Positions 1 to 43,549 of a stretch of 61,457 nt of DNA are shown piece by piece. The stretch is from contig CAVGUB010000111.1 of assembly GCA_963632375.1 (NCBI GenBank), positions 81,913-143,369 of the forward strand. The letters are read 5' to 3'. Below the pieces are notes generated by a model that worked only from the letters and a program-made list of their open reading frames with translations, was not told the DNA's origin and made no database searches. Within the stretch, counting starts at the first letter, position 1. Each line of letters begins with the position of its first letter. A program made the translations under genes and the position numbers. The stretch comes from Phocaeicola dorei (GTDB lineage: Bacteria; Bacillota_I; Bacilli_A; RFN20; CAG-826).

Positions 1-64
1 CTATTTCTAGTACTTAAGACTCTAAGGAACTTCCAGCAATTAAGAAAATTATTTTTTTTAATCA

Positions 65-583
65 TTACTGATTAATGGCGCAAGTGGTATTTTTTACGCC
101 TGTTACAACATTGTGAATAAACTCACCACCTTTAAAGGTGTACTCTGCCATTGCTGGCTTGCCAGTTGCTGAGCTAGCGGTCAAATCAATCATGATCGCA
201 AATTTACGAGTAGGATACTCAACGCCCAAGCAACGATCTTGTTTAACGATCAAGGTGTTACCACCCCAAGAATAAGATTCATAAGTAGCACCAAGATTTA
301 CCATCTTGTTTGCACCCATAGAATAAAGGAATGCGCCATCAGTCTTATGTCCTACAATCCAAGCAGAAGCAGCTCTCTGTCACTCAGCATAGAAAGAAGG
401 ATTGCAAAGCAATACCCACTGATTTCCCTGAGGTTTCTCACATTTAGCTGCAAGAGCCTGCATAGCTTTTTCGAAATAACCCATATTGAGTTTGCTAAAC
501 ACATATTTGTTAGCAAAACGCTCAATCTGAGCAATTACTCCGTCAGACGTAATTATCGGCCTTCCGTCTTCATCAAAAGTTTT
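65..583 (-). CDS. Major capsid-like protein, C-terminal part (proposed 3' exon)
   Basis: Frame is open from 583 to TAA 65-67 if TGA 380-382 is read as Trp. It is closed upstream by TAA 587-589 with no start codon at its 5' end. Track ORF 65..319 is its tail. The capsid call rests on position after a scaffold-like gene, combined size and my recognition, not a search. Confidence 0.5.
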
Positions 584-1747
584 CCTTTAGTTAACTTTAT
601 GTCTCCATAAAGAGCAGACTATATCTTAATCTTTTAACGACTTTATATTTGACGTATTTCCATAAAAATAACGTCATCTGTATTTTGCACAATGTTTTCT
701 ATATCCAGCAATAGCTCTACTTAAACAAGATATAGTAACATTTAATTCTTTAGAAGCTTGTGTTAATGAATAAAATGATTTTACAAAAATACCATCATCC
801 GTATAACATGCGATAGCGGTTCCCTGCAAATCCTTTGGTTTATAATTGAAATGTTTTTCATAACTTCAATAATAACCATGAGAAGATCTAATTTTACCAT
901 TACAAGCATTATTTATTGACGTGGAGCAAATACCTGTTTTTTCTGAAGCTTCTGCACAATTTTTATAATATGTAATGTAATTACCTTGTAAATCAAATTG
1001 GTAAACTACTTTTTGTTTTAAAGGTAAAGCTGGGATATTTTTTTTATTTCCTGTAAAGTATTTTCATTGATAATCTTTACAAAACTTAATATCACCTGAA
1101 CATGCAGATTGAATTCCACTACGTGAAATTCCAGTTAATTGAGATGCCTGTGTTATAGAATGATATGTTCTTAAAAAATTGCCATCCATATCATATTGAG
1201 CAACTTCTCGTTCGCTCATAGAGGAAGGTACTTTTCCACCCAAACACATATTATAAACATCTTTTCGCTTTAAAAATTCTCGATTAACTAATTCAGCTTC
1301 TTTTTTATATGCGGCTCTTTTTCCAACTTCGGTATCATCATATTCAAATAATGTTTCTCGAATAAAATTCTCAACACCATATTTTTTAACAGCTTTATGA
1401 AACTTATAAGATTTAAATTGTTTGATACTATTGGGAGAATTATATATGCCACATCCAATATAACCATCATCAATATCTATATTTGTTCTATGAACACCTA
1501 TATAGATTTTATTATTTATTTTATTTGTCGTTTTATAAACTATGTATTTAAACATATAAAAGATTTCAAACATTTAGTCGTTGAACATTCTGCTTAAAGC
1601 AGCCTTTGCTGCTGATCACCTAATCAAATAAATTTTTCAAACCATCATAAATATATTGTGGTATTATTTGCTTAAAGGCTTTCCAGCAATTTGATTGAAT
1701 TCAATATAGTGTCACCACTATATAGCCCTGTAACTTATTAAATGTCA
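584..1747 (-). mobile_element. Putative group I intron interrupting the capsid gene
   Basis: Separates the two halves of one capsid-like reading frame and carries a GIY-YIG ORF. The minus-strand 3' end has a 7-bp hairpin with a GAGA (GNRA) tetraloop (595-612), then 11 nt ending in G next to the proposed 3' exon. Boundaries are +/-15 nt. Confidence 0.45.
893..1573 (-). CDS. GIY-YIG homing endonuclease (intron-encoded), C-terminus disrupted
   Basis: N-terminal YIVYKTTNKINNKIYIGVH...DDGYIGCG matches GIY-YIG. It is followed by repeated V.QYD..G.f...Y.SI.qAS..TGI DNA-binding-type repeats. In-frame TGA at 1064-1066, TAA at 893-895. A third repeat continues to 626 in another frame. Confidence 0.75.
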
Positions 1748-2536
1748 AGGTTTTCCATTAGCGTCCATATTAGACTTACCTCAAAGAAGAGCGTTGTTTC
1801 TAGCCTCCATGAAGCTATCCAAACAATCCTTCTCAGCAGTATTCATCTTATAGACAGGATCTGTACCATCTTTCTCACCTGCACCTATCTGGATAAATAC
1901 ATCCTCCATAGGTTTGTACATAGCAGACATATCTACATCACATCTGTGAGTCGCAATATAAGTGCGGAAATTCTCACAGTTAGATTGGTATTTAGTGTAC
2001 CCTTCGGCATGAAGCTCAGGATGATAATTTGTTACAAAGTGAGTCATATCACCAACTGCAGGTTCTATGATCTGTGAATCATAATCATCATCGAGGATTT
2101 GAGCCACTACCAATCAACAATTATCAGCAATACGTTGAGGACGATTAACAACAATAAACTGCTGTCTTGTTTTCTCGATTACAAACGTATCATACTTCTG
2201 ATAATAATTTTCTCCGAAATAAAATTTAATGTCACCTGCGCATTCACCGCTACCTTCTGTTGCTCTAACGATCGGAAGTCTCTTGATTTTAGAAACTTTC
2301 AAAGACCACTCTACAACGAAAGAAGGAAGAGATTGGAAACCCTTAGGTTTCTTATCACCTGCGAAGCAGTTCATAAGAGCTTCAGTAAGGTGAGTTGCGG
2401 TGTATTGATCATACAACGTAGAAACAATACCCAAGCGAGACGGTTTGCTGCCAAGGAACTTCATGAAATCCTCATAAGTTCTCGTAGCAGGCATATTCGG
2501 ACGAACGGTTGAAAAACCCGAAATTCTAATTGCCAT
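1748..2536 (-). CDS. Major capsid-like protein, N-terminal part (proposed 5' exon)
   Basis: Track ORFs 2114..2536 and 1781..2113 share one frame and are joined by TGA 2114-2116. A further TGA lies at 1781-1783. The frame then dies at TAG 1718-1720. ATG at 2534-2536 sits directly after the scaffold-like gene. Confidence 0.5.
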
Positions 2537-2557
2537 AATTTAAAAATTTTATAATTG

Positions 2558-3628
2558 TTACAATAAATCCGAGTTATCCCAAGCTGAAATGAAGTCGTGA
2601 TTTTTTTCCATTTTGTCGACTTTTGGAATAACCACGGTATCACTATTTTTATTTATCTTATTTAATTGAGCTCTCAATTTTTTATTTTCAGCTCTTTCAG
2701 TGGCCAACAATTCTTTAAAATACTTTGATGTATCAGAAAGAGCGTTAGCGCCTTGTGTTCTAAGCCAAGCAAGTTCAATTAATGCATCTGGATTTTCTAA
2801 ATCTTTCATCAATTGAGACTTACCATTTGCGTCTTGTTCAAGAAGATAATGTAACATTTCCTGCTTGTCCTTATCCTCGACCACAAGGGAGTCACTATTT
2901 TGATCAGTATAATCTAATGCAATTTCATTAAAATTACTTACAGCATTTTCAATAGTCCTTCTTAAATCAGAGGCTTCTTGTTCACGCTGTGCCTGTAATG
3001 CTGCATTTTCGTCATCTTCATATTTTTTATATGTATTTCTAAGAGTAGAAGCTTCTTTTTTATAAAGTTCTTCATTCTCTTTCGCCGCTTCTAGTTTTGA
3101 AAGAAGTTCCTCATCTGAAAAATCAGGATACTGCCTTTTAAGGTTTACTAGATAGAGATCATCATCTGTATAATCATCAATTGTATAAGTTTTCTGTGGT
3201 ACAGCATCTTTATGCGTTTCCAAATAAGTTTGGATTGCATCTGCTGCATACTTATTCAAAACTTGATTAAATGTAACACCATTAGCTCGCAAGGAGTTAA
3301 TAAGTGATGCTTCCTCATTTGTTAAACCAGAATCTGTAATCTCATTAAGAATCTCAAGTTTTTCTTCATTCGACAGTGAATTAAAATCTTGAAATTCTTC
3401 AGTGCCATCTTCATTTGTAAATGAAATTTTAGACGGATCTTTAATTCCTTTACTTTGCAAAAAGGCATAAATAGGATCTTCTACTGGTGAAGATTGCTCT
3501 TCCCCAACCTCTGAAGTTTCCTCTGATTGAGAAAGATCCACTTCATTTGGTTGTGTTATTGGTTCTTCTGAAGGTGCTGGATCTAGCATATCTTCAAAAT
3601 TCTGAACCAGAATTTCATCATTTTCCAT
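2558..3628 (-). CDS. Acidic coiled-coil protein, scaffolding-like
   Basis: Intact 356-aa ORF ending in TAA. It is very D/E/K-rich with heptad-like stretches and lies immediately upstream of the capsid-like gene. Confidence 0.45.
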   Translation of the reverse strand: MENDEILVQNFEDMLDPAPSEEPITQPNEVDLSQSEETSEVGEEQSSPVEDPIYAFLQSKGIKDPSKISFTNEDGTEEFQDFNSLSNEEKLEILNEITDSGLTNEEASLINSLRANGVTFNQVLNKYAADAIQTYLETHKDAVPQKTYTIDDYTDDDLYLVNLKRQYPDFSDEELLSKLEAAKENEELYKKEASTLRNTYKKYEDDENAALQAQREQEASDLRRTIENAVSNFNEIALDYTDQNSDSLVVEDKDKQEMLHYLLEQDANGKSQLMKDLENPDALIELAWLRTQGANALSDTSKYFKELLATERAENKKLRAQLNKINKNSDTVVIPKVDKMEKNHDFISAWDNSDLL

Positions 3629-3705
3629 AATTACATATTTGTTCTATTTAGATCTTTTCGACAAAAATAATAAAATTATTTTACAAAACAAAATTTTTAT
3701 TAATT

Positions 3706-6324
3706 TTAAGTATCAGATAGTGCATATTTGTACAAAAACCATTGTTTTATTGAAGTTTTTACAACTTCCCCACTTCCGTTTGGAATATATAAATAATCAA
3801 GATATTGAAATTCAAGACTAATTCTAGAACTTGTATTTACATATTCTATTGTTTTTTCATCCTTTACTGAATATATAGTTTGATTATCATTTGGTCAAAT
3901 AGTCAAAGTCTTGTTTTTATTCATATGAATTAGTTTGATATATTGACCATGTTTTGGATTACTTGGAAGTTTTAAACTCATATCTGATGTATTATTTACT
4001 CAATAATAACTATACTCATTTAACAATATATCATTATTCTCAGCTTCGTCTGTATGGATCATTTGATTAGAACCCGTTATATAATACGGTGCAGGTTTAA
4101 AACCTGCTATTGTACCATTACCACAATTTAATGCGAAATTATAATTACTTGTATACGCCTCTGTGTTTAAATACAAACCATTGCAAGCAGGCATTTCGTA
4201 ATTTAAAACATTTGCATAAGAATTTGGTAATGTTTTTGTATATACAGAAGAAAGATATGCCCCATATAAAATTCTTCTAATTTCGCCTGAAGGGACTTCA
4301 GTAATCTCTGCATTGTTAGAATTTATTTTGAATTCGTTTTTAGTTGTTTTTGTTTCTGTTTCAACTTCATCTCAAGTAAGCGGCGCATCGAATTTAATTC
4401 AAAATGAATTTGGATATACGTTTGCAAAATTAGTACTTTTATCCCCAGCAGTTGAATCAGCGTACGCGATTCCATTACTATCTATTTTTCATTTACCAAT
4501 AATTCCGCTATTAGCTCCAATTGTACCGTTTTTGGTAACATAGAAACCACCATCGCCCAATTCAGGTTCACCTTTGTCTGATATTGTAACATCTCCCGCA
4601 ATAATGGTTCCATCACCACGTAATTCAAGATTTCCACTTGAATGTTTGATAACACCACCATCAATATATCAGCCTTGATTAGTACCTATTAACATTGTAC
4701 CTGTAGACAAAGTTTCAAAACTTGAAATCTGTACTCATATCTTTGCATCAGATCCTGGTTTTATATTTATATTTTGTGTTGTTTCATCAAAACCAATACA
4801 CTTCCAATAGGTTCAAGAAGATGAACTAGCGTCTGCATAAGATACGTAATCCAAATAATAAACCTCTTTATCTACATCTTCTGTTTCTAAAGATACCGTT
4901 TTTCCATCATAATATCTATCGGTTTCATTTCATTTTCTAAAACGACTAATAGCACCTGACTTACCTGCTTCACCCGGATCACCTTTCGTACCTGTAGCAT
5001 ACACACCTCAATGTTCTGTATCTTGATCTGGTGTAACATCACTTGTAACTTTTGATTTACAAATATACGATACAACGTTACCATCAACAGTATATGTTAC
5101 AATATCGTTTTGTGTGTAAGTGTTTACGGAACTTCACTCACCTCTAAAGATTGTTATTGGTTGTTCACCAGTTCCATCTCTTTGAACCATTACACCATCA
5201 AGAAGTAAATTGCCATCACCGTACATCAAACGTTCACCTAATTTTAGTTTGTCGTTTTGCAAATCGAGGAAACTTGTACCATCTGGCGATGCAAATAAAT
5301 AAGCTCTCACTTGACCAGGTGTAATTTCTGTGAAACCGTTCATTGTGCTGATACTAGGACAACTACTTCCATTTGTTACAATGGCATAAAGCATATAATA
5401 TCATTCATCACCCTCATTGTATTCTACTGCATTCTGTGTATAGTAGAAATAACCTGTACCTGTTTTAGCATATAAACCTGGTCCATTTTTAGTGTCATCG
5501 GGGGATTCTTTTTCAGCATAAAATACGGTAGGCTCACCTGAATAATATTTACCACTTTCTGTGTCATATTCAAGACTAATATTAGCACCATTTAAGCCTG
5601 TGCCCTGTTTTTCAGGATTACTTTCTTGAATGCCAAGTACACTCTTATATGGAACTACCAAATAACAATAATATGCCTCATCATTATTTAGGGTTAATAT
5701 CATTGATTCTTCTTCACAATCCTCGTTAAGGATTTGTCAACGCCAATAATCATTTCCACTTCTACTTTGATTATCTGGAGTAACCGATGATGGGCCATCT
5801 AAAGTGTAATGTTTTATATATCCTGGTGTAAATTCTACAAACCCGTCATCATTAAGTTTCAATGGGCTTTCGGCCACAGACATATCTGTAAAACTCTTAA
5901 CTCATTCAAATTGTAGTTGTTCTGATCCTACAGAAATTTGCATTGTACTAACTGTTATTGGAGAAATAGTTTGTGTGTATCCATTTAACAATGCGTTTTC
6001 TAGAGCTTTTTGTGTTTTTGTTACATCTTCCCAAGAACGAGTCGTAACATAATTTTTTAATTTTCTACGTAAATCCTCGGATGTAATATAATCATCTAGA
6101 TTGATTTGTTCTTGTTGTTGATTATTGGAATCAGAAGAATCTTCAGATGTACTGTCTGTAGCTTGTTCTACAGCCTTACCAATTAAACTGTCAATATCAT
6201 TTAATTTTCCATAATCAATTTCATATAGTTTATCTCGAACCTTTATATATAAATGTCCAGATGTTTCAAGAATCAAATCTTTATTTGGTTTTCCTAAAAT
6301 TTCACCATTATTTATTAATGCCAT
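3706..6324 (-). CDS. Large virion structural protein (about 872 aa, function unassigned)
   Basis: Track fragments 5902..6324, 5401..5703, 5134..5394 and 4000..4194 are all in one frame. My hand translation of 3706-4390 found only TGA interruptions and a TAA at 3706-3708. The off-frame track ORFs 4482..4664 and 4887..5087 look spurious. Confidence 0.65.
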
Positions 6325-6901
6325 AATATTCTATATTAGCAATTGTTGTATGTGGATTTTTTGAAATAACATATACATTTTGATCTTTAATCTTTTTTGT
6401 TTTTCAAAGGAATCCTAAGAATCGTTTATATTGTGTAGTAGCACTTATAACAAGGGAGTCTCTACTAGCAACATCTACTTTAGCAGTATCCTTATAAACA
6501 ATTCCATCCACAGATACTCATTTATCTTTCCATGAAAAAACTTTTGCAGTATCTCTGTATATGATACTATCCCTTACTTGGGTTATTATTTTTATTTCTG
6601 TTTTTGTGTTGTTTTTTATAAGATTGTTTAAATCCTCATTCTTCTTTTTTAAAGCATTGATTGTTCTTAAATCCTCAGCTTTATAACGTTCTAGTTCACT
6701 TATACGTAATGTCAAAATTCCATTTTGTGCTGCAGATAAACTATCTTTTGTTTTTCAAGTAGTACATTCAGTTAATGCAGCATCCATGTTACGTTGATAT
6801 CTATTTTTAGCATCTTGTATATGATTAATTCTAACCTGTTGAATGGAAATAGTCCCAATTAAACAAGCTATTATTCCAATTAATATTAACTTTATTTTCA
6901 T
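6308..6901 (-). CDS. Membrane-anchored or lipoprotein-like coiled-coil protein
   Basis: ATG 6899-6901. N-terminus is MKIKLILIGIIACLIGTISI (hydrophobic, Cys-containing), followed by a coiled-coil-like region. Several in-frame TGA; TAA at 6308-6310. Overlaps the next gene's start by 17 nt. Confidence 0.55.
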
Positions 6902-6956
6902 ATTACATAAATTTTATACAAAAATACAAAAAACAAAACAAAATAAAAAGACCCCA

Positions 6957-7361
6957 CTAAATAGTGGAGTCTTTACAATCTTCACATAAAAACAATTTAG
7001 CAGTTTTATACATTTTTTCTCCTATTTCACCAAATAGATAATTAAACTCTTCGGAGTTTATATCTATATTTAACGATTTAGCAATATGTACAGCTAAATG
7101 TGATTTTTCATGATCCAAAGTATTTTGAAATTCAGACGTCGAGGATGCTGGTGTCAACGCAATAATAGAGCATCTATGTTTGATATCGGAATAGATTAAT
7201 CCATTGTCTTCAATACAAAGATTTTTAATTGCTTCTTTTTGAAATTTATTTGATGCTCCCATTGCTTCCAATTCATCTAAAACAAACCAAATTAAATCAA
7301 CATTATAAAATATCTTGATGAATCAATCATACATATCTAAATAGATGCTCTGTATTACCAT
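6957..7361 (-). CDS. Small protein with HExxH motif
   Basis: ATG 7359-7361 overlaps the upstream TAA as TAATG. One TGA at 7323-7325. Contains DHEKSHLAVH. Confidence 0.5.
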
Positions 7362-7651
7362 TATATCATATCTCCTCAGTTTATAGGAATACCTTTCCCT
7401 ATACAATCAGCATAAAATCTAGTAAACGGTAATTCAGAATAACCATCTGTATCATCTACATAATCTTTTATAAACATTGCCAAATGTTTTTCATCAGGAA
7501 TAGAAGAATTTAAATAATCAAAAGATGCCATATTTGCAACATATACATAGTCATAACTTGTTTTATTTTCAATTGTTATATTATTTTTAAGTAATATATT
7601 ATCAACTTCTTCTTTAGTTAATTTATGTACGTTATTGTTTTTAGATTTCAT
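7361..7651 (-). CDS. Hypothetical protein
   Basis: Track ORF 7376..7651 extended through TGA 7376-7378 to TAA 7361-7363. Confidence 0.55.
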
Positions 7652-7740
7652 ATTTGAAATAGCTCATTCAAACATTCGTTTACTAAAATGTCACCCATAA
7701 TATGATAAGTATTTTTCCATTCCTGAAGGAAAGGTATCAT
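7618..7740 (-). CDS. Small hypothetical protein (30 aa if TGA stops, 40 aa if TGA=Trp)
   Basis: ATG 7738-7740. TGA 7648-7650 overlaps the next ATG as ATGA. The frame continues to TAA 7618-7620 under TGA=Trp. Confidence 0.3.
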
Positions 7741-7746
7741 ATTTAT

Positions 7747-7917
7747 CTAATCTCATTTTCTCATTTCTTTCATTGCTTCTTTGTATCCATCTTCATATCC
7801 ACATTTATAGATTTCTTTTGAAGATTTCATTCCATATCTATAGTCTTCATCCTTTTCACGTATATCGTCTCAGTAATCTTTACCATAGCGACCTTCACGT
7901 ATTTCCCACATTCTCAT
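7747..7917 (-). CDS. Small hypothetical protein (56 aa)
   Basis: ATG 7915-7917 follows the upstream TAA. Two in-frame TGA; ends at TAG 7747-7749. Confidence 0.4.
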
Positions 7918-7919
7918 TT

Positions 7920-8438
7920 TTATTTAGTATTTAGTTGTTCAATCAAACGTTTGTTAGATTCCATTAAGTCAATAATACTTTTAGAAATATCCGTTACTTG
8001 CTGACGTAATTCACTAATCTCAATTTTTTGTGCTTGTTTCTCAGCAAATTCTGGATTTAAATCAGTTAATGCTTTATCACAATCAACGATAAAAGCTTTA
8101 TGAAAATCAATACTTTTAATTATATCTTCACTTTTACGTTTTAAACTTAATATCTCGGCATTCATAGTTTCTTTACTATCTGTAACAACAATGGAATCGC
8201 CGTTTAAGATAGTATCCGCAACATTTGATTGTGCCGATAATCCGTTATAATTAACGGTTTGATCATTTAATTTAACAACCAAATCAACCAACATCTCTTG
8301 AGGCTGGTTAAAATTAGCAGGTACAGGATATTTAGGTCTTGGTGTTGAAACAGATACTACATAACCTATTTCTAAAAATGGTTTATTTCCTTTGTGAAAA
8401 ATATAAACCGGATTATTATTTCTTAATGATTGGAACAT
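7920..8438 (-). CDS. Hypothetical protein with C-terminal coiled coil
   Basis: Intact 172-aa ORF with a TAA stop. Confidence 0.6.
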   Translation of the reverse strand: MFQSLRNNNPVYIFHKGNKPFLEIGYVVSVSTPRPKYPVPANFNQPQEMLVDLVVKLNDQTVNYNGLSAQSNVADTILNGDSIVVTDSKETMNAEILSLKRKSEDIIKSIDFHKAFIVDCDKALTDLNPEFAEKQAQKIEISELRQQVTDISKSIIDLMESNKRLIEQLNTK

Positions 8439-8447
8439 ACGTATTGA

Positions 8448-8789
8448 TTAACTAGTTAATAATCTTAACATATCTGTACTTTTATCGTAGAAAAACAAAT
8501 AAACACCATCTCCAGGTCATGTAGCAGTTGTTAAAGCTGTACCAGCTGCATTATAAACTGCGGTTTTAGTGTTATTTGTTCCCACACTATCAAAATAAAT
8601 AGGAACTGCTGTGTCTGGTGCGGTTTCAGTTCCTGATACTTTAACTAGAAATATACCTTGAAAGTATATATCAAATGCTGGATGTCTATTGAAATAGAAA
8701 GTTTCCCCGGTGGTTGTTAAAGTAGCACTGACTGTTTCTAAAGCAGGAATTCCTAATTTATTTACAAAATTTAATCTCGTAATAGCCAT
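8448..8789 (-). CDS. Hypothetical virion protein
   Basis: Track ORF 8517..8789 extended through TGA 8517-8519 to TAA 8448-8450. Confidence 0.55.
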
Positions 8790-9800: not shown

Positions 9801-9821
9801 AAAATATATTTTATAAAAACA

Positions 9822-12059: not shown

Positions 12060-12065
12060 ACAATA

Positions 12066-34051: not shown

Positions 34052-34057
34052 AACAAT

Positions 34058-34421: not shown

Positions 34422-34423
34422 AT

Positions 34424-34711: not shown

Positions 34712-34735
34712 AATAAAAATAATTTAATTAAATAT

Positions 34736-35158
34736 CTATTTTACTTTTAGATTGAAAACTTGATTTCTTTGAAAGCCCATGTTATTATACAATCCTAAGT
34801 GGACTCATTGAACAAATCCACTTTTTTCAATAATACATTGGTCTACCTTTTTATCTTTTAAATAATTGACAACAAATGATTTGAATGTTTCAAAACTTCC
34901 AGATGTAGGTTGTAAATCTACAGCGTTACCTGTTAAATGGGCAGATGTTGATTTTCCTCCTACAGCTTCATTAAGTTCCGGGCATCTAAAACCAGACGTT
35001 ACTTTAATTGGTTTACCTCACGCTTCTCTTAATGGATTTAAAAAAGAAATCAATCTTTCTAAATTTTTAGTTTGTTCTGCATTAGGTGTATTGTCAATTT
35101 TTAATTTAGCGGCTGTTGTAGATGCACATAATTCCTTTACCGTAAAATATTGTTTCAT
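34736..35158 (-). CDS. Peptidase M15 (VanY-like) endolysin (140 aa)
   Basis: Hand translation gives ...[40 protein letters not shown]..., the zinc D,D/L-Ala-D-Glu peptidase signature. Two TGA; TAG 34736-34738. The plus-strand track ORF 34866..35183 is its mirror. Confidence 0.8.
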
Positions 35159-35159
35159 A

Positions 35160-35789
35160 TTAAATAGAATTATAAACAGCTAAAAGTTTCTTAACATAAT
35201 CTGGGTCTGTGGCATATCCAGCATTTTTAACTCTTGTATAAAAGTCTTGTGCTGTTTTGTTTCCTGTAAATGCTCTATATCTAGATCCATTTAACAATGC
35301 AATTTTAGCGTTTGCATAATCTTCCATGGAATCATAATTCCTGAACCTTTGCGTAATTGGATTCCCATTTGCATCGTGGTCAGCACCTTCTGTGTAAGAA
35401 GCTGTTGTATCTGAGCCCACTGTAATATTCCCATAATTATATCTTCCAGCATAAGATTTGCCATAGTTTGATTCCAAAGCATCTTGTGCAACTAAATATT
35501 TTGCATAATCAGTTGAAATACCGGCTTTTGTTAATGCTGAAGCATAGGCATTTGTTAAATCTCTAACAAAATCAGATCTATTAGAATATTTAACTTCATC
35601 AGCAGACATTGATATAGGTTCTTCTACTTCGTCTACAGGTAAACGATATTGAGGCTGATATCCAAACATTCCTTCAGGAACATCTACAGATACTGGATTA
35701 AATCTAGTATCTAGATCATAGTTATGATAAGGAACTTCGTCCTCAGTTTCTTGCTTATTTACTGTATTTAAATATACTATACTATTCAT
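35160..35789 (-). CDS. Glucosaminidase/muramidase-like peptidoglycan hydrolase
   Basis: Intact 209-aa ORF. AQDALESNYGKS...YNYGNI...RFRNYDSMEDYANAKIALL resembles the FlgJ/LytD-type glucosaminidase domain. Confidence 0.6.
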   Translation of the reverse strand: MNSIVYLNTVNKQETEDEVPYHNYDLDTRFNPVSVDVPEGMFGYQPQYRLPVDEVEEPISMSADEVKYSNRSDFVRDLTNAYASALTKAGISTDYAKYLVAQDALESNYGKSYAGRYNYGNITVGSDTTASYTEGADHDANGNPITQRFRNYDSMEDYANAKIALLNGSRYRAFTGNKTAQDFYTRVKNAGYATDPDYVKKLLAVYNSI

Positions 35790-35843
35790 TATATTAAATT
35801 TTATATTTTATAATCTTTTTACAAATATATAAAATAAAAACAA

Positions 35844-35870
35844 AACACCCAAGTAAAAAACTTGGGTGTT
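35844..35870 (-). terminator. Hairpin terminator
   Basis: AACACCCAAG taaaaaa CTTGGGTGTT, directly after TAA 35877-35879. Confidence 0.6.
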
Positions 35871-35876
35871 AAAAAA

Positions 35877-38018
35877 TTAAGAAGAACTACCAGGAGTAAT
35901 GCTCCATAGATCAGACAGATCTTCTTTGGTTCCTTGATATATATAGCAGCATAATTTAGCTTTTCACGGTCTACCTAATGTACCGTCAGAAGCTCTATAT
36001 CCACCTATCAATAAACTCAAATCAACATCTGGAATTGCATATGCATAAGTTGTTCAAGTTGTACCATCGGTAGTATAATACAATGTATCACCGGAACGAC
36101 GTATACCAGCACATACATCGTTATTTGAGCGCACGATATTCGCTAATTGACTCGATGCAGTAATAATCTGGCAATCACATAGTGTACTTCAGGTGCCTGA
36201 TTGAACGGTAAATCCTGGATATGGACTAACTTCATTCATACAGTGTAAAGCTGTTTCTTGTGTTCCAGTAGGCGCTGTTTCAATGAGTGAGTGTATAAAT
36301 ATTGTCCATTCAGTCATTTCATCAGTAAATATCTTGTAACCAGTATCCACAATTTCAGATGTATCACTACCAGTAAATGTTTTATTGACAGAATAAAGCA
36401 ATACAAGATTCATAACAGTTAATTTCACTGTAGATGACAATGTTTCATCACCATTTGGTACAGCTGTTATTGTAATTACATCAGATACTGATGCGTCAGA
36501 ATTTACAGTTAATGTCATGGTAGATTCATCAAATGTAGCGTTACCTGTTACTGTATAAACAATAGTTGGAGATTCAAGATTTGTCTTATAACTAACTGTA
36601 ACAGAAGCTCCGACACCAGGTGTAGCATTTGAAACTGACAATGTAAAGTAATCTGCTGTATTTAATCATTCTTCAGTTTGAGATCAGCGTTGTACAATAA
36701 ATTTTCTAATCTGCTGTACATTATTTGTACTTGTGGATGGAATATTTACAAATGCACCATCGGCTGTAGAAGTACTATAATCTTCTGCTATTAAATCATT
36801 AGAATTATAGTTTGTTCAATCCTCAAACATCTTAATAAGATTCTCCCTCGAAAGAACTGTTTCTTTCAACTCAAGTCACCTTGCATAAATTTCCTCTTTA
36901 AACAAAGAAGCCAATCTAATATAAAGCAAGTTACCAGATCTAGAACTTTGAAAATCTTCATAAGAACTTCTTGGATAAGTATAACTCAGTATCTGTGAAC
37001 CATCTCAATACAAACCCCATGTAGAATCCAAATCATATGCTTGAGCTATAAAATGCTGTCCGTCATAACATTGTAGCATTTGGTTTTTTCCAAAACCATC
37101 TAGATGGCACGACATTATTCCAAATACATAGTAATCAATTAAACTAGGTACGTCAAAATAATCCGACAAAGAACTTTTAAAAGTATCATCGTCACTATCC
37201 ATACAAAAAGCAATTGCATCAGTAAGTCTAGTTTTAATTGTATCTGGAACCGTATCATGCAGCTCATCAGTCCAATCAGTCCCATCTATTACTGGGGCTG
37301 CTCTAAAGCAAGCGGATACATAATTTTCGCCACAAAGAATTACTTGAGATTCATTATTTGAATCCATATTAGCCATTCAAGCATCCTTCGGTATATTAAA
37401 ATCATACCTTCCTTGATATTCTCCATTTACATAGAACTTGACCAAGAATCCATCAATAACGCCTTGATTAGGGGAAGTTCTCAATTCTTCAGGGTAACTT
37501 GAATATGTACTTCTAGATTGTACTATTTGAGATCAAATTCTTGCTGATACAACATTTCTTGCATGAGAAATATCAATTCAGTTTGCTTTGATTACATACT
37601 TGCTTTGTTTTCCTCAACCAAAATCGTATTTGAATTTAGATGAGCAATCAGCATCTTTATATAATTTTATTGTAAAATTTTTCTTTGGATAAGAAGCAGA
37701 TGATGTTCCTTGTACTTTTAACGTTCCATAACAACGCATAACAACATCCCCATACATATAAGTAATCTTTCCTTTAAAATTACCATCATCTTTAGACGTA
37801 GGAGTGTCTCCAGTTCAAAACAATTGTGGTAATGTGTTGAAAGTATCTTTACTTACATTATGTGTTGTTTCGGGAACGGTTGATTCTGTAGAAGGAGTAT
37901 ATTCTGTTCATCCATCTGCTAATATCATTGCTGAAGTAGGATTTCCGATAACCTTACCGTCAACAATAACAGTAATATATTTACTGTCTTTAATTATTCC
38001 ATTCTTTATATATAACAT
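35877..38018 (-). CDS. CotH-domain fibre/receptor-binding protein with C-terminal Ig-like region (about 713 aa)
   Basis: ATG 38016-38018. Hand translation of 37377-38018 gives ...GTSSASYPKKNFTIKLYKD...KYDFG-W-GKQSKYVIKAN-W-IDISHARN...GFLVKFYVNGEYQGRYDFNIPKD, which is CotH-like. Joins track ORFs 37005..37376 and 36189..36641. TAA at 35877-35879. Confidence 0.6.
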
Positions 38019-38021
38019 ACT

Positions 38022-38651
38022 TTATAATATTATTCCTGTTAAAGTTCCATCTCCGTAAGATTTACCAAAAAACTCACCTGTATCTTGTCGCATTAAACCA
38101 TACTCACCATTTAAATATCAAGGCAAGAATTCTACACCATCTACAATCAATCTATATATTCTAGTTCCATTTTTTGCCCATCCTGCTTCATTCCCAATCT
38201 TGCCAAAAATTGATATATTTCCAACTGATGGACTATTAAAAGTAGGTTCGTAAACAGTGCTACTTAAACTAGATGTAATTTTAAGATTATTATAAGATGA
38301 TGCAAATCCATACGTTACTGGTGTTGCTGTCCCTCTATACAAATTATAAATAAAATATTGCCCAGATGCAGAACCTGTACGATAATCTTTACGTTTTTTC
38401 TCAGATACAAAAAGATTTCAACGAGCTCTACGTGATGAATCAAGTAACAATTCTTCATCTCCTCTTGATCACAATTTAAAGTCTCCGGATGAAGGGAATG
38501 AATTCATATAGAAAACACCTTCCATTGTAGAGCTATACGTCATTCCAATTCCTATATCAATTAAACAGGATCCATCTGTAGCTATATATTCACACTGATT
38601 TCCAGCTTTATTTGAATATAATGCTTGTTGTATATGTCTTATCATTCCCAT
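38022..38651 (-). CDS. Hypothetical virion protein (209 aa)
   Basis: ATG 38649-38651. Track ORFs 38469..38690 and 38118..38342 are joined through TGA. A genuine TAA lies at 38022-38024. Confidence 0.55.
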
Positions 38652-38653
38652 AT

Positions 38654-40666
38654 TTACGATACTGCATAATACTGTGCTCACGTAGCACAACCATTAACAA
38701 TACAAACCTGAACTACACTCCCGGTCTTCATAGTAGAAGGGCTAGGTATGAATGATCCGTTAGCCCATTTAATAGAAGAATCAAATGAAATTGTAGCAGA
38801 TTCATCTAAATTATCTTTAGAATACTGAAAAATATATTCTTGTCCATCCGTTGTAGCTTCTGTTGGAAGAGAAACAGTTAAAGAAGTTAAAGAAGTTCCA
38901 GTTAATAGTGTAATTGTATTAGCTGCTAATGTTATATCTGATTCTCCAGTTTCAACAGTTTTTCGTTTTCAATCTTCTGATGCAGTTAATTCTTTCCATT
39001 CAGTAGCTGTAGCAGATTCTAGATAGTAACCCTTAATAGTAGCACCATCCATATAACTACCTACGATTCTTCCTGATGCATCAATTCCAAATGTTTTTGG
39101 AATACTTAAACTAGTTAAATTCGGATAAGTACTTATGTTAATATAATTACTTGCTGATCCAACTATTCTAGTCGCATACATATTTTGGATTGTAACTGAA
39201 GCATCGTCTCCAACAAAATTTATATATCCACAATGATTAAGTGTACACGAAACTAATTTGGGAAATTTACAATTTAAAATATAGCCAGAAAAAGAAGATG
39301 TTTGTACTGCGCCAATTTCACAATTTTGAATAGCACCTGAATATAGAGCACCCGTTTGCGCACCTGTTACAGTATTAGAAGCAAATAATCCTGAAATTGT
39401 TGTATAATTTAAATTTCCAGCAAGAGAAAATGTACATCCTTGAAGTATTCCTTCTTGTGTAAGAAATCCTATATATCTATTATCTGCAGTAACTTCAAAT
39501 GTATTACTGCGCATGTCATTTATTTTAGATGAAAAAAACGAGCATCTAATTTTAGTATTACCTATTAGATTAAATATATTGTGTCTGATTCCTGTTCGAG
39601 AATTATCAGTAGCTGTACTTCTATTTATCAAATTTTGTTTACTATATATTAAATTGTCTGAACCTTTATAAAATACAACATTATTAATACTTGCAAATTG
39701 TGATTTAGAAACCTCACCAAATTGATTATCGTTGCAATATGATTGGTCAAAGAACGTTAAATTATAACAAAATGCTCCAAATTTATTATCATTAAAGTTA
39801 CGAGCCCACTCAATTATATCTGGTAATGTGACATTATCTATAAGTGGAATGTGATTTCCAGCAACACTTCCCTCTCCTACAACTGTAGCATCTTCAATAT
39901 CATCAGGTGTTATTGAAGTTGTAATATCAGAACGAATGTAACCAAATGTATAATACCAACCAGTATTAAATTGAAATTTGGCACCAGAAAAATCAGTTCC
40001 ATCATAATGTTGTTGTATTTCACCTAAATTATATATTTCTGAATATGTATTAGGTACATCAGCACGATAAAATTGAATATTCTTGAAATCGTAACCGAGA
40101 TTATTATCGTATTCGTCTATCATTTGATAGATAACACCTTTTCCATTTGTTGTATCTGCTCATTTATATAACGTATCGTTATTATCAAGACAATATTTTA
40201 ATTTTCAAGCAGATACATGAATTGTTTGTCCAGCTCACGAACCATACTTTCTAACAAAATAGGTATCACCTTCATGAATTGCAGCTTTAGCATTTTCGTT
40301 TAATACTGATGCACTATCAGCTCTAACAATAATATCAAACTGATGCCCGGCACTTCTAGATTGACCTTCTACAGGCGTTTCTGAATTTGGTGAAGAACAA
40401 GTTTTTGATTTTCCATTGGTTGTTGTTACATAATCAGTTATCCTATAATATTGTCCAGGAACAAGAGTGCTAGCATCACGTAATGCTTTAAGTTCAGACC
40501 ATGTAATATTGACAATTTCCTTTATATCAGGTTCTCCATATATCTCTACTTCTGAATCTGTTTTTAATTTAATTAATTTATCAGACGAATCAAATATAAC
40601 AGTACCTGTATCTAAGGAATCTGTCGATATATTTGACCCGTGTATTCATTTCGTTTTTACTGCCAT
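38654..40666 (-). CDS. Tail fibre / beta-helix-like receptor-binding protein (about 670 aa)
   Basis: ATG 40664-40666. Several TGA on either side of track ORF 38969..40123. TAA at 38654-38656. N-terminus MAVKTKWIHG...IKLKTDSEVEIYGE parallels 19547..20497. Confidence 0.6.
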
Positions 40667-40710
40667 ATAAAAAATATTTAATGTACAAATTTACTAAAAA
40701 TTTTGGAATT

Positions 40711-41436
40711 TTAAAAAGTATATCCTGTTTCATTTCTTTTTAAAGATTCTTCAAGTTCTTTTTTAGCTTTTCAAGCTTTTAATTCTTCAAGTTCCTTTTT
40801 GATAGATTCAATATCATCTGTATTTTTCGTTAATTGTTCTGTTACAGCTTTTACCCAAAGTGAAGCTTGTTGTAAACCAGTGAGATTAAAATTCTTTTGG
40901 ATAACTGTAAACCCAGCAGAATCAGTTTTATCTGTAGTTTCTTCAATTAAAAGACCTTTTTCAATTAACATAGTATTATATTTTTTTATTGAAGGAATTG
41001 TTCACCCAGTACGTCTTGATAATTCTGCGTTTGAAAAAGAACATTTACCTATACCAGTTTCTTTGCCATATAAGAAGGGTTGAATATCCATATAATATTC
41101 CTTAATGTTAAGTGGTAGATCTAAATCAAGAAACTCATCTGTGAACATTTCGAAACGTTTATCAAATTCTGTAATTGGGAATATATAATGATTTTTATAT
41201 CCATCATTTACTTTTTGAATTAAATTAGATTTAACTAAACGGTTTAAAGCAGAAACAACTTTATTTGTACTACATTTTAATTTTGTGGCAATTGTATTTA
41301 ACGCGGGATAACATTCTCGGGTATCCTTATTCATATAACGTCTTATAGCAGTGTATACAATTTTGTCTCCATGTTCCAACGTATGTTGGTTTTTTAGATT
41401 ATCTAATTCATGCGGAACTTCTGTATGTTTAATCAT
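40711..41436 (-). CDS. Two-winged-helix DNA-binding protein (Rep/initiator-like or regulator)
   Basis: Track ORFs 41002..41436 and 40771..40971 are one frame, joined by TGA 41002-41004, then extended through TGA 40771-40773 to TAA 40711-40713. Two HTH-like segments. An iteron array lies directly upstream. Confidence 0.5.
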
Positions 41437-41531
41437 ATCATTTTATTTTTAATTTTTTATCTTTTTATTTATGATTACAAATATATAAAAATAAAAATGA
41501 AAAAGAAAATGTAAAATAATAAAAAAGTGGT

Positions 41532-41631
41532 GAAATAAATTGATACGAGTTTGAAATAAATTAATATAAGTTCAAAATAAATTGATACGAGTTCAAAATA
41601 AATTGATATAAGTTTGAAATAAATTGATCAC
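41532..41631. repeat. Five tandem 21-bp direct repeats (iteron-like)
   Basis: GAAATAAATTGATACGAGTTT / GAAATAAATTAATATAAGTTC / AAAATAAATTGATACGAGTTC / AAAATAAATTGATATAAGTTT / GAAATAAATTGATCAC. They are contiguous with no spacers. Confidence 0.8.
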
Positions 41632-41686
41632 TAACTATACTTAATAGATTTATAGATTTAATATATTTATGAACTATATTTAAACG

Positions 41687-41718
41687 AAAAAATTCCCGAG
41701 CTTATGTCGGGAATTTTT
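41687..41718. terminator. Hairpin terminator
   Basis: AAATTCCCGA gcttatg TCGGGAATTT with flanking A and T runs, downstream of TAA 41741-41743. Confidence 0.6.
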
Positions 41719-41740
41719 ATTTAAGATATTAGAATTGTAA

Positions 41741-43549
41741 TTACTTTATAACGTTAAGTATAGGATAAGACTTAACCGATTCAATTTTATTTCTCAATCT
41801 AGGATTTGATAAAAGCATTTGTTTGGTCGGATGCGCAAACTCTTCTCCTAAAATTTCAATTTCAGCATGGGTTGTTGGATCATAACCTAACTTTCTAGAC
41901 ATTATTTTTTCAGGAGAAACCTCATTCTTTAATTGAAACGGGTTTATAGATCTTCCATTCGGATAACTAAATTTAATATCTTTTAATTCCGACATTGGAG
42001 TTGTATTTACTTTCTTAGCAAATTGATCAAAATCATAAATTACATCAAAATTATCAGGGTGTACTCCTGATTTTAACCCGGTTACATTTTCTAAAGCTTT
42101 AACAGACGAATAATCAACTTCTCCAAATTTTTGTTTTATTATTTCATTGGCCAATTTATCATATTCTTCAACTCCGTCCAAATATCCAAATCCCTTTTTA
42201 TTTAAATTAATTCTATCAACATTTGTATTTTCAGTGCTTTTAATTTTTAAAAACTTCTGAATTAGTTTGGGGTCTGATATAACTTCATATCCCATATTTT
42301 TTGCTTGATTGAGTTTTTCAGGATTCCCACTTAAAATTTTAATATATTTTTTATCAATAGGTTCATTTTTTATAAAAGAGTCCATTGGCTCTATACTTTT
42401 AAATTTTTTATTTTCAAAAGCAATTGGATCGATAATAAGATAATCTTCACCAGGTCTAATTCTATAATTCTTATGAGTAATAAAACTTTGATCATATGTC
42501 ATATTTGTAAAGATATTGTCTTTTGGGGAGAGTAGAACTTTACCATCTACTATTTCAGGTATTTCTCCAACATTTCTTATAAACATTAAATTTCCATAAT
42601 TTGTACGCCCAATATTTCCTTTGCTTTTTACATTTTTAAGTCAAAAACCAAGTGGAGTTTTCTTATAGATATTTACCTGACTTGCATCTAAATTAATTGG
42701 AATGTTTTGTTTAGTTATAACCGGGGTTACCTTGTCTCCAACTTTTATATCATTAGCTGTAAAATATTCAGATTTTACACCATGTGTATCAAAACGTCCT
42801 AAATGAAAATTTGGATTTGTTTTTGTCTCTATTAAAAATTCATCATTGTGTATTGATCCATATGATTTACCTTTTGTAAAGTGGGGATAATTAGATGAAG
42901 GTCCACTTGTCACTTCTCCGGAGTGTTTTACAGATTCAAAACCTTTTTTATCAACAATTCTATATGCACTACTTTCATCATAATCCATAAAAGGTCTTCA
43001 ATGAACATCTAATACTCTCCCAGATAAGCTTCCTGCAGCACCTCCTAATATCGCCCCTGGATTTAAAAATTCTGCTAATGTACTTTTTGTTTCACCCCAG
43101 TTTTTATTTTGGCGCACAAACTCTCCAAATGTATCATAGTTAGATTTTTTTTGTATGATTTTGTCAATACCTAAACCGCCTAGTGCTCCTCCTACAAATC
43201 CTCCAATTGTTGCGAATGGCGAAGCAACTAATGCAGGCGCTGCAGCAACAATAGGTGCAGTTTGTAGAAATACAGATCCGGATGTATCTATAAAATCTTT
43301 TTGTCCTTTATAAATCTTATCTTTTAGTTTTTGTGTTCGTATTGAATCTGGTAGTTTTCTAAAATCTTTCGGTTTAAGATTATCTGGAGTTTCCTCATAA
43401 ATAGTATCTATAATAGAACTAGCACCGTTGTCATATAACCATTGACGATGTGCTTTGGCATCATTACTTCAAAATCATTCAGGATGTTGTATAGCATATT
43501 CCTGAATTCTGTTGATGTGCCCGTAGTAATCATTGTGTTTGTATTTCAT
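41741..43549 (-). CDS. Large hypothetical protein with Gly-rich hydrophobic segment (about 602 aa)
   Basis: ATG 43547-43549. Track ORFs 42641..42988 and 41741..42586 share one frame, joined by TGA 42641-42643. Further TGA lie upstream of 42988. This is the first gene of the minus-strand arm. Confidence 0.55.

What the first reader, a model, noticed from the sequence alone, without database searches (positions are those of the whole stretch)
1..43549. TGA is a sense codon (Trp) throughout the virion/packaging/lysis arm and never a terminator
Standard-code ORF calls in this arm are shattered. Adjacent same-frame fragments are separated by single TGA codons. Examples are 2114-2116 in the capsid-like gene, 27642-27644, 27270-27272, 26262-26264 and 25881-25883 in the terminase, and 24597-24599 and 24321-24323 in the portal. 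Reading TGA as sense joins them into full-length genes that end in TAA or TAG. TGA sits where recognisable families have a conserved Trp. These are HNH 'HFTGQG-W-NK' (55320-55322), DUF2158-like 'KCR-W-F' (30243-30245), lysozyme-like 'YGLIQ-W' (33219-33221) and RecB-like 'QLSIYA-W' (31403-31405). I found no confident gene in the window that terminates with TGA. Stop-codon reassignment is known in uncultivated gut phages, so the phenomenon is not new, but it governs every annotation here.
Basis: partly seen in the sequence, partly recalled or inferred. Interest (0 to 1): 0.8.

Follow-up and report, generated by a model that had tools for sequence, protein, structure and literature searches.

The report
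TGA read as tryptophan in phage
This is part of a large crAss-like gut phage that reads the stop codon TGA as tryptophan in its virion, packaging and lysis genes while keeping its early genes free of TGA, a known phage trick that mainly matters for annotating this genome correctly.

Summary
All 11 cited codons are TGA on the coding strand. Reading TGA as sense raises stop-free runs of at least 400 codons from 3 to 11; shuffled sequence never exceeds 291.

The 42 genes of the recoded block (65-43648) hold 131 in-frame TGA and 56 TGG and end in TAA (35) or TAG (7). The 19 early genes (49130-61168, + strand) hold 0 TGA and 45 TGG.

TGA is Trp, not Gly, Cys or Arg:
- Eight of 10 TerL TGA columns are mostly Trp in 114 homologues.
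- All three portal TGA codons align with TGG in relatives that do not recode TGA.
- A 93%-identical relative shows 14 TGA<->TGG swaps against one other change.
- Pfam scores are highest with Trp.

Qualifications:
- An HNH gene in the early arm is also recoded.
- The capsid gene is split by a group I intron as well as by TGA.
- Eleven genes carry a TGA within 10 codons of the stop, so "never a terminator" is not provable there.
- No UCA-anticodon tRNA, release factor or Trp-tRNA synthetase lies in the window, which covers about 43% of the genome.

Late-gene TGA-to-Trp recoding is already published for crAss-like phages, so this is a new member of a known kind.

The parts
65..43648 (-). TGA-recoded block: 42 genes, mostly on the minus strand, for virion, packaging and lysis functions plus a nuclease and a replication-initiator-like gene
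   Evidence: 131 in-frame TGA and 56 TGG; stops are 35 TAA and 7 TAG. Gene list.
25803..28022 (-). Terminase large subunit, 739 aa, 10 in-frame TGA
   Evidence: Full-length homologues. Eight of 10 TGA columns are mostly Trp. TGG, Tyr or Phe at these columns in standard-code relatives. Crassvirales TerL hits.
23352..25553 (-). Portal protein, 733 aa, 3 in-frame TGA
   Evidence: P22_portal at 26.2 bits. All three TGA align with Trp in MT835470 and MT835539.
1754..2536 (-). Major capsid protein, exon 1; contains the TGA at 2114-2116
   Evidence: Crass_capsid at 22 bits, below the 27-bit threshold. Residue 141 aligns with Trp in MT835470.
595..1753 (-). Group I intron in the capsid gene, carrying a homing-endonuclease ORF with NUMOD1 and I-HmuI-like domains (626-1573, 3 TGA, 0 TGG)
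   Evidence: Rfam Intron_gpI at 1565-1753 (48.5 bits, threshold 50) and 595-733 (31.8 bits). NUMOD1 and I-HmuI-like domains. The capsid gene is contiguous in MT835470.
65..594 (-). Major capsid protein, exon 2
   Evidence: tblastn places it directly after exon 1 in MT835470.
32179..35789 (.). Lysis cassette: a small protein whose N-terminus looks hydrophobic (not tested), tail lysozyme (32715-33671, +, 7 TGA, 0 TGG), 33671-34051 (+), M15 peptidase (34736-35158) and glucosaminidase (35160-35789)
   Evidence: Pfam hits and the gene table of L001. Lysozyme scores 44.9 bits with Trp and 35.0 with Gly.
35877..38018 (-). CotH-domain protein, 713 aa, 14 in-frame TGA
   Evidence: CotH at 85 bits. Scores with Trp/Gly/Cys/Arg are 95.4/89.0/90.5/82.9 bits.
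30171..30404 (-). Small DUF2158-like protein, 77 aa, with the TGA at 30243-30245 ('KCR-W-F')
   Evidence: ORF located. DUF2158 is detectable only with Trp, at 14.7 bits, below the 22.3-bit threshold.
31214..32149 (-). PD-(D/E)XK (RecB-like) nuclease, 2 TGA
   Evidence: PDDEXK_1 at 20 bits, threshold 22. Residue 249 aligns with Trp in MT835470 and Phe in MT835539.
40711..41436 (-). Replication-initiator-like winged-helix protein, 2 TGA
   Evidence: PHROG families for DnaD-like loader and replication initiation, E=3e-11.
41533..41637 (.). Five tandem 21-bp repeats upstream of the initiator-like gene; a candidate origin
   Evidence: Repeat family D1. Cumulative GC skew reaches its minimum at 42-44 kb.
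49130..61168 (+). Early block compatible with both codes: 19 genes, including ClpP, an MGS-like protein, a DUF2828/DUF7788 protein and an HAD phosphatase
   Evidence: 0 in-frame TGA and 45 TGG; stops are 18 TAA and 1 TAG. Pfam hits.
55149..55667 (+). HNH homing endonuclease inside the early block, itself recoded (3 TGA, 0 TGG)
   Evidence: TGA aligns with TGG in homologues from standard-code phages. Homologues sit inside tRNA clusters in other phages.
53283..53367 (+). tRNA-Leu (anticodon UAG); not a suppressor
   Evidence: ARAGORN and Rfam.
56092..56163 (+). tRNA-Gln (anticodon UUG); not a suppressor
   Evidence: ARAGORN and Rfam.
51163..51226 (+). A 64-nt tRNA-like element with a shortened anticodon arm and no UCA
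   Evidence: Rfam tRNA at 47.7 bits, with 8 nt where the model has 15. ARAGORN does not call it.
61408..61457 (+). 5' part of a second tRNA-Gln (UUG), cut off by the end of the window
   Evidence: Repeat D4 with the tRNA at 56092. 100% identical over 47-50 nt to bacterial tRNA-Gln genes.

Best explanation
The window is about 43% of a roughly 143-kb crAss-like (Crassvirales) phage genome built as two divergent arms. The late arm (65-43648, mostly minus strand) encodes capsid, portal, terminase, tail and fibre proteins and the lysis cassette. It uses TGA as its main tryptophan codon (70% of Trp codons) and ends genes only in TAA or TAG. The early arm (49130-61168, + strand) contains no in-frame TGA and no TGA terminator, so it reads the same under the host's standard code and under code 4.

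The most likely mechanism is the published one. Early genes are translated by unmodified host machinery. The phage then supplies an opal-suppressor tRNA (anticodon UCA, charged with Trp), possibly with helper factors, and only then can full-length late proteins be made. In-frame TGA therefore works as a translational lock on virion, lysis and homing-endonuclease genes.

Shown here: TGA is in frame, it corresponds to Trp, its distribution follows the arms, and TGA terminators are absent. Inferred: the suppressor tRNA, the timing, and a standard-code host.
For: - ORFs are restored specifically by making TGA sense.
- The late arm has 131 TGA and 56 TGG; the early arm has 0 TGA and 45 TGG; Fisher p = 5e-20.
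- TGA plus TGG is 1.37% of late-arm codons, against 1.54% TGG in the early arm.
- Trp columns are confirmed in TerL, in portal, capsid and nuclease and in HNH.
- Opposite TGA, the standard-code genome MT835470 has W8 Y5 F3 L3 and three others; the TAG-recoded MT835539 has W9 Y5 F3; neither has Gly.
- Against the 93%-identical L001 there are 14 TGA<->TGG swaps and one other change.
- Pfam scores are highest with Trp.
- The syntenic early region of a more distant TGA-recoded relative (L104) shows the same rule: 41 TGG, one TGA that probably lies upstream of the true start, and no TGA stops. A relative whose genes end in TGA (L025) has 5 TGA terminators among 15 genes.
- The truncated tRNA-Gln at the window end is identical to genes in uncultured Bacteroidales contigs, where 66 of 298 long ORFs end in TGA.
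- Published precedent: PMC7886860, PMC12386605 and bioRxiv 10.1101/2021.08.26.457843.
Against: - No tRNA with anticodon UCA, no release factor and no Trp-tRNA synthetase is found in the window or in any flank of a relative I could reach. The decoding agent is therefore not shown.
- Two recoded genes are not obviously late: the replication-initiator-like gene at 40711-41436 and the RepL-like gene at 48402-48926.
- Eleven of 43 recoded genes have a TGA within the last 10 codons, against 4.2 expected (p = 0.002). TGA may therefore still act as a leaky or former terminator at some gene ends.
- There are no expression or proteomic data.
Confidence: 0.9

Rival explanations
1. The host itself uses code 4 (TGA = Trp, as in Mycoplasma or Spiroplasma) and the phage simply follows it. 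No phage-driven code switch is involved.
For: Table 4 restores the genes. The genome has low GC, 32%. No suppressor tRNA is seen in the window.
Against: - In a 32% GC genome under host code 4, early genes should also prefer TGA. They have 0 TGA and 45 TGG, while the late arm uses TGA for 70% of Trp codons.
- TerL, portal and capsid are Crassvirales-like, and the cultured hosts listed for the Crassvirales hits are Bacteroides, Flavobacterium and Cellulophaga.
- The host-like tRNA-Gln matches Bacteroidales contigs that use TGA as a terminator.
Confidence: 0.03
2. TGA encodes glycine (code 25, as in phages of Gracilibacteria and Absconditabacteria) or another amino acid such as Cys, Arg or selenocysteine.
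For: Any sense reading of TGA would restore the ORF lengths.
Against: - No Gly, Cys or Arg appears at TGA columns. The residues there are Trp, Tyr and Phe.
- The swaps are with TGG, not with GGA, CGA or TGY.
- Pfam scores with Gly, Cys or Arg are lower than with Trp.
- Borges et al. report that about 90% of genes carry in-frame TGA in code-25 phages. Here the early arm has none.
Confidence: 0.01
3. The fragments are real. The TGA codons are nonsense mutations or assembly errors in a decaying or badly assembled genome.
For: The window does contain one apparent frameshift relative to its close relative, in the PG-binding gene at 28767-30178.
Against: - Of 62 aligned TGA codons, 54 are conserved in an independent 93%-identical assembly and 7 are TGG there.
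- Independent assemblies carry identical proteins.
- The 131 TGA sit in frame and there are no in-frame TAA or TAG.
- The TGA codons fall on Trp columns.
Confidence: 0.01
4. TGA is read as Trp without a canonical phage suppressor tRNA. Possible routes are near-cognate reading by host tRNA-Trp(CCA) helped by a phage factor that blocks RF2 or alters the tRNA, or a very divergent tRNA-like RNA.
For: - No UCA tRNA is found in 61 kb or in the reachable flanks of relatives.
- An odd 64-nt tRNA-like gene lies at 51163-51226.
- Both Yutin et al. (PMC7886860) and the Zeta study (PMC12386605, Table 1) list opal-recoded crAss-like genomes with no detectable suppressor.
Against: - Only about 43% of the genome was examined.
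- A tRNA gene is cut by the window's right end, so more tRNA genes may follow.
- The tRNA-like element has no UCA triplet.
- Other opal-recoded relatives do carry tRNA-Sup(UCA) (PMC12386605).
Confidence: 0.08

Closest known systems
Opal-recoded (TGA to Trp) crAss-like phages, especially the large-genome Zeta group (Yutin et al. 2021, PMC7886860; 'Lera' phage and the proposed Echekviridae, PMC12386605)
   Same: - Crassvirales-type TerL, portal and capsid.
- TGA in TerL, structural, lysin and holin-region genes, with Trp at the homologous sites.
- Recoding confined mostly to the reverse-oriented virion and packaging block, while the forward block with scattered tRNA genes is standard-compatible.
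- Group I intron and homing endonucleases.
- Close relatives use TAG recoding (MT835539) or the standard code (MT835470).
   Different: - At 143 kb the genome is just below the published 145-192 kb range.
- TerL is only 57% identical to that of a 173.5-kb TGA-recoded contig (L004), and phylogenetic placement in Zeta was not tested.
- No suppressor tRNA is seen in the part available.
- No diversity-generating retroelement repeat pair was found in the window, although one fibre has an Mtd_N domain.
TGA-recoded Agate, Jade and Sapphire gut phages and the 'code switch regulates late and lysis genes' model (Borges et al., bioRxiv 10.1101/2021.08.26.457843)
   Same: - The early and replication block is standard-compatible.
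- Structural and lysis genes are rich in TGA.
- Lysis genes (lysozyme 7 TGA, 0 TGG) and homing endonucleases (HNH 3/0, NUMOD endonuclease 3/0) use only TGA for Trp, as reported for an Agate intron endonuclease.
- Low GC, and TGA is not used as a terminator.
   Different: - A different phage lineage.
- The Jade 'code change module' (suppressor tRNA, TrpRS and RF1 upstream of the lysis cassette) is absent from this window.
TAG-to-Gln (code 15) crAss-like phages, validated by metaproteomics (PMC9523058)
   Same: The same logic of late-gene stop-codon recoding within the same order of phages.
   Different: A different codon and amino acid. For TGA-to-Trp in crAss-like phages I found no proteomic validation in the papers I read.

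Membership tests
Phage with late-gene TGA-to-Trp recoding (code 4 in part of the genome) | Conserved genes are broken by in-frame TGA and restored by table 4 | tested here: met
   ORFs of at least 400 aa rise from 2 to 11. TerL matches homologues over 99% of its length. Shuffle control.
Phage with late-gene TGA-to-Trp recoding (code 4 in part of the genome) | TGA positions correspond to Trp in homologues that encode it with TGG | tested here: met
   TGA<->TGG swaps; Pfam substitution scores.
Phage with late-gene TGA-to-Trp recoding (code 4 in part of the genome) | Recoding is confined to late genes, and early genes are readable in the standard code | tested here: met
   131 TGA in the late arm against 0 in 19 early genes, p = 5e-20. 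Exceptions are the HNH at 55149-55667 and the RepL-like gene at 48402-48926. 'Late' and 'early' are inferred from gene content, not from expression.
Phage with late-gene TGA-to-Trp recoding (code 4 in part of the genome) | TGA is not used as a terminator | tested here: met
   0 of 61 gene ends. Caveat: 11 genes have a TGA within 10 codons of the TAA or TAG stop.
Phage with late-gene TGA-to-Trp recoding (code 4 in part of the genome) | Phage-encoded suppressor tRNA with anticodon UCA | tested here: inconclusive
   None in the window or in the reachable flanks of relatives. About 57% of the genome was not available. Published opal-recoded relatives often lack a detectable one (PMC12386605, Table 1).
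Phage with late-gene TGA-to-Trp recoding (code 4 in part of the genome) | The host uses the standard code | tested here: inconclusive
   There is only a hint. The truncated tRNA-Gln is identical to genes of uncultured Bacteroidales, whose contigs end 66 of 298 long ORFs in TGA. The TGA-free early arm points the same way.
Phage with late-gene TGA-to-Trp recoding (code 4 in part of the genome) | Peptides spanning TGA positions carry Trp | not testable with these tools
   No proteomic data are available here.
Crassvirales (crAss-like phages) | Crass-type TerL, portal and major capsid protein | tested here: met
   By tblastn, TerL is 46% identical to MT835470 and about 30% (E = 5e-50) to Suoliviridae TerL. 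P22_portal scores 26.2 bits. Crass_capsid scores 22 bits, below the 27-bit threshold, on exon 1 only.
Crassvirales (crAss-like phages) | Giant multi-subunit RNA polymerase genes and the conserved tail and muzzle module | not tested
   RNA polymerase genes were not recognised in the window. The large tail proteins were not compared in detail.
Zeta group of crAss-like phages | Genome of 145-192 kb with many introns and inteins | tested here: inconclusive
   Contig lengths are 143,369 and 143,005 bp, from database metadata. There is one group I intron in the capsid gene. TerL homologues carry intein domains. The size is just under the published range.
Zeta group of crAss-like phages | Phylogenetic placement of TerL within the Zeta clade | not tested
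   No reference Zeta sequences were retrieved and no tree was built.
Code 25 phages (TGA = Gly) | Gly at TGA columns, and in-frame TGA in nearly all genes | tested here: not met
   No Gly at any TGA column. The early arm has no TGA. Gly scores lower than Trp.
Selenocysteine recoding | A few TGA at Cys or Sec columns | tested here: not met
   131 TGA lie in 36 of the 42 late-arm genes, at Trp, Tyr and Phe columns. No search for the selenocysteine insertion element (SECIS) was made.

The most novel reading that the evidence does not exclude
This lineage may read TGA as Trp without any canonical UCA-anticodon suppressor tRNA. It could use a phage factor that blocks RF2 or retunes host tRNA-Trp, or a highly aberrant tRNA-like RNA such as the 64-nt element at 51163-51226. 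The excess of TGA just before TAA/TAG stops would then mark sites where TGA still terminates part of the time and yields two protein forms.
Probability: 0.08. Interest if true: 0.7.

Novelty: new member of a known kind. Interest (0 to 1): 0.25.

Why it matters
The practical consequence is for annotation. Every gene call in 65-43648 must use table 4, or a dual-code gene caller. Otherwise terminase, portal, capsid, fibre and lysis genes are shattered and the phage cannot be classified.

Biologically the window is a clean example of the published model. It has a sharp two-arm split (131 against 0 in-frame TGA), TGA terminators purged from the whole window, and selfish endonucleases that are also locked by TGA.

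It adds nothing new in kind. The open question it touches is what decodes TGA in the opal-recoded crAss-like phages that lack a detectable suppressor. That cannot be addressed from this partial genome.

Tried and rejected
- **PDB sequence searches.** Searches with TerL, CotH, the M15 peptidase and HNH gave no hit or no informative column.
- **Extending beyond the window to find a suppressor tRNA.**
  - Exact-protein look-ups for right-end genes found nothing or only short contigs that end inside the window.
  - The left-end look-up gave a 10-kb contig that stops at the capsid gene.
  - Scans of the viral contig collection with the last right-end protein, with TerL and with the truncated tRNA found no close relative.
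  - Homology searches with two right-end proteins found no long contig of the same species.
- **The truncated tRNA-Gln as a probe.** In the metagenome and genome collections it hit only bacterial chromosomal contigs of 41-52% GC, not phage tRNA arrays.
- **tRNA scans of relatives.** ARAGORN on 15 loci from relatives found no UCA anticodon.
- **Rival readings.** TAG-sense and TAA-sense readings, TGA as Gly, Cys or Arg and host code 4 were considered and rejected.
- **The '+' ORF at 30061-30390.** I first listed it as a gene. It is the antisense of the real DUF2158-like gene.
- **Diversity-generating retroelement.** I looked for its template/variable repeat pairs and found none of 40 nt or more.

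Full report
**Observation.** All eleven cited codons are TGA on the strand of the gene they sit in. With three stop codons the window has 2 ORFs of at least 400 aa. With TGA as sense it has 11. Making TAG or TAA sense gives 2 and 3, so the effect is specific to TGA. Stop-free runs of at least 400 codons number 11 when only TAA and TAG stop translation. In 100 shuffles of the window the longest such run was 291 codons. The table-4 map gives a dense, mostly minus-strand block from 65 to 43648 and a plus-strand block from about 49130 to 61168.

**What the window is.**
- The joined genes include a 739-aa terminase large subunit, a 733-aa portal (P22_portal), a capsid protein that hits Pfam Crass_capsid, CotH, M15 peptidase, tail lysozyme and a PD-(D/E)XK nuclease.
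- TerL has thousands of full-length homologues on metagenomic contigs of 143-180 kb, several of them carrying inteins.
- By tblastn, TerL matches Crassvirales TerL genes. It is 46% identical to MT835470 and about 30% to Suoliviridae.
- A 93%-identical relative is ENA NODE_96 at 143,005 bp. The window's own contig is listed at 143,369 bp. The window is therefore about 43% of the genome.
- Group membership fits the large-genome Zeta group of Yutin et al. (PMC7886860) but was not tested by phylogeny.

**Which amino acid TGA encodes.** I put X at every TGA position so that the searches were not biased.
- *TerL columns.* In a MAFFT alignment of TerL with 114 homologues, 8 of 10 TGA columns are mostly Trp and five are invariant. 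The other two are mixed Tyr/Trp/His, and none has Gly. Many of those homologues are themselves recoded, so I went to the DNA. In the standard-code genomes cr55_1, cr50_1 and MT835470 the same columns hold TGG, Tyr or Phe.
- *Whole-arm comparison.* tblastn of all late proteins against MT835470 gives W8 Y5 F3 L3 and three others opposite TGA. Table 11 and table 4 give the same ORFs in that genome. Against the TAG-recoded MT835539 the counts are W9 Y5 F3. The residues opposite the window's TGG codons show the same pattern.
- *Named examples.* All three portal TGA codons, capsid residue 141 (2114-2116) and nuclease residue 249 (31403-31405) align with Trp in MT835470.
- *HNH.* The TGA at 'GQG-W-NK' is TGG in 4 of 5 homologues (Agrobacterium, Gordonia and Vibrio phages and Dulem virus 42; the Citrobacter phage has Ala). 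The TGA at 'TE-W-QG' is TGG in 5 of 5.
- *Codon swaps.* Across 6,550 aligned codons against the 93%-identical relative, 54 window TGA codons are conserved, 7 are TGG and 1 is CAA. Seven window TGG codons are TGA in the relative. There are no swaps with GGA, CGA, TGY, TCA, TTA or TAA.
- *Trp frequency.* TGA plus TGG makes up 1.37% of late-arm codons, matching 1.54% TGG in the early arm. TGG alone would be only 0.41%.
- *Pfam scores.* With Trp/Gly/Cys/Arg at the TGA sites, CotH scores 95.4/89.0/90.5/82.9 bits. With Trp/Gly/Cys, Phage_lysozyme2 scores 44.9/35.0/36.7 bits. DUF2158 is detected only with Trp, and even then below Pfam's threshold.

**Distribution of TGA.**
- The 42 late-arm genes hold 131 TGA and 56 TGG. 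The 19 early genes hold 0 TGA and 45 TGG (Fisher p = 5e-20). Terminators are 53 TAA, 8 TAG and 0 TGA.
- The two apparent TGA codons in early ORFs (49922 and 50271) lie upstream of better start codons.
- There are three exceptions or nuances.
  - An HNH endonuclease in the early arm has 3 TGA and 0 TGG.
  - A RepL-like minus-strand gene at 48402-48926 has one TGA.
  - The recoded block includes a replication-initiator-like gene (40711-41436, 2 TGA) next to five 21-bp tandem repeats.
- The lysis genes and both homing endonucleases use only TGA for Trp, as Borges et al. reported for Agate phages (bioRxiv 10.1101/2021.08.26.457843).
- The syntenic early region of a more distant TGA-recoded relative (L104) shows the same TGA-free rule. 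A relative whose genes end in TGA (L025) has 5 TGA terminators among 15 genes. TGA terminators therefore appear to have been purged in the recoded lineage.

**Caveat on 'never a terminator'.** Eleven of 43 recoded genes have a TGA within the last 10 codons, against 4.2 expected (p = 0.002), and these tails are conserved in L001. They may be former TGA terminators now read through to a nearby back-up stop. With a suppressor competing against RF2, both protein forms could be made. Sequence alone cannot decide this.

**Mechanism.**
- The TGA-free early arm argues that TGA is not readable at the start of infection. That means a standard-code host and a phage-supplied decoding agent, as in the published model.
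- I could not show the agent. The window holds only tRNA-Leu(UAG), tRNA-Gln(UUG), an odd 64-nt tRNA-like element and a truncated second tRNA-Gln at its right edge.
- It holds no release factor or aminoacyl-tRNA synthetase.
- All attempts to read beyond the window failed.
- The literature notes that several opal-recoded Zeta genomes have no detectable suppressor (PMC12386605, Table 1; PMC7886860).

**Host hint.** The truncated tRNA-Gln is 100% identical over 47-50 nt to tRNA-Gln genes on bacterial contigs of 41-52% GC. Most of the named ones are uncultured Bacteroidales (Bacteroides sp. CAG:545, CAG:709 and CAG:770). Those contigs end 22% of their long ORFs in TGA.

**Verdict.** The phenomenon is already described for crAss-like phages and other gut phages, so this is a new member of a known kind. 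Its value is mainly for annotation.

Noticed in passing
window 595-1753 (minus), ORF 626-1573: The major capsid gene is interrupted by a group I intron (Rfam Intron_gpI at 48.5 and 31.8 bits, both under the threshold of 50). The intron carries a homing-endonuclease ORF with NUMOD1 and I-HmuI-like domains and 3 TGA, 0 TGG. The capsid gene is contiguous in MT835470. Part of the capsid gene's fragmentation is therefore due to the intron, not to TGA.
   Followed up: partly
window 51163-51226 (+): A 64-nt tRNA-like gene scores 47.7 bits against Rfam tRNA but ARAGORN misses it. It has perfect acceptor, D and T arms. The anticodon arm is reduced to about a 3-bp stem with loop CUUUUAG, and there is no UCA. 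Its fold is no more stable than shuffled sequence (z = -0.6). Its function is unknown.
   Followed up: partly
window 61408-61457 (+): A second tRNA-Gln(UUG) is cut off by the window end. It is 100% identical over 47-50 nt to chromosomal tRNA-Gln genes, mostly of uncultured Bacteroidales. The other window tRNA-Gln (56092) is only 77% identical to them. This suggests recent capture from the host and gives a host hint. More tRNA genes may follow beyond the window.
   Followed up: partly
window 43700-47300: An island of higher GC (39-46% against 32% overall) lies between the two arms. It has short plus-strand ORFs, including two of 188 aa at 45157-45723 and 46181-46747. These contain no TGA and have no Pfam or PHROG match. 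Its origin and function are unknown.
   Followed up: partly
window 28767-30178 (minus): The PG_binding_1 protein is a single 471-aa gene in the 93%-identical relative L001. In the window it is split into 257-aa and 191-aa ORFs by a one-base frame change near 'FQNGG'. This could be an assembly error, a real frameshift or programmed frameshifting.
   Followed up: partly
window 40711-41637: A replication-initiator-like winged-helix gene (2 in-frame TGA) lies next to five tandem 21-bp repeats (41533-41637), near the minimum of cumulative GC skew. This is a likely replication origin. It is odd for an initiator to need TGA decoding.
   Followed up: partly
window 55149-55667 (+); L028, L029, L030: This HNH endonuclease family sits inside tRNA gene clusters in unrelated phages of Citrobacter, Gordonia and Vibrio. 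Here it lies between tRNA-Leu and tRNA-Gln. It appears to be a homing endonuclease associated with tRNA clusters.
   Followed up: partly
late-arm gene ends, e.g. 8790-9665, 32715-33671, 12066-14534, 14690-15145, 17582-19528: TGA is enriched in the last 10 codons before the TAA or TAG stop: 11 genes against 4.2 expected (p = 0.002). These may be relics of former TGA terminators with nearby back-up stops.
   Followed up: partly
L013 (MT835539.1) 1356-1440: This relative appears to be TAG-recoded, since its ORFs lengthen only when TAG is made sense. ARAGORN finds in it a tRNA with anticodon UUA, nominally an ochre suppressor, within a block of seven tRNA genes.
   Followed up: no
window 15145-16632 (minus): A tail-fibre protein has an Mtd_N domain (34.7 bits), as in the target proteins of diversity-generating retroelements. 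No template/variable repeat pair of 40 nt or more, and no reverse transcriptase, was seen in the window.
   Followed up: partly
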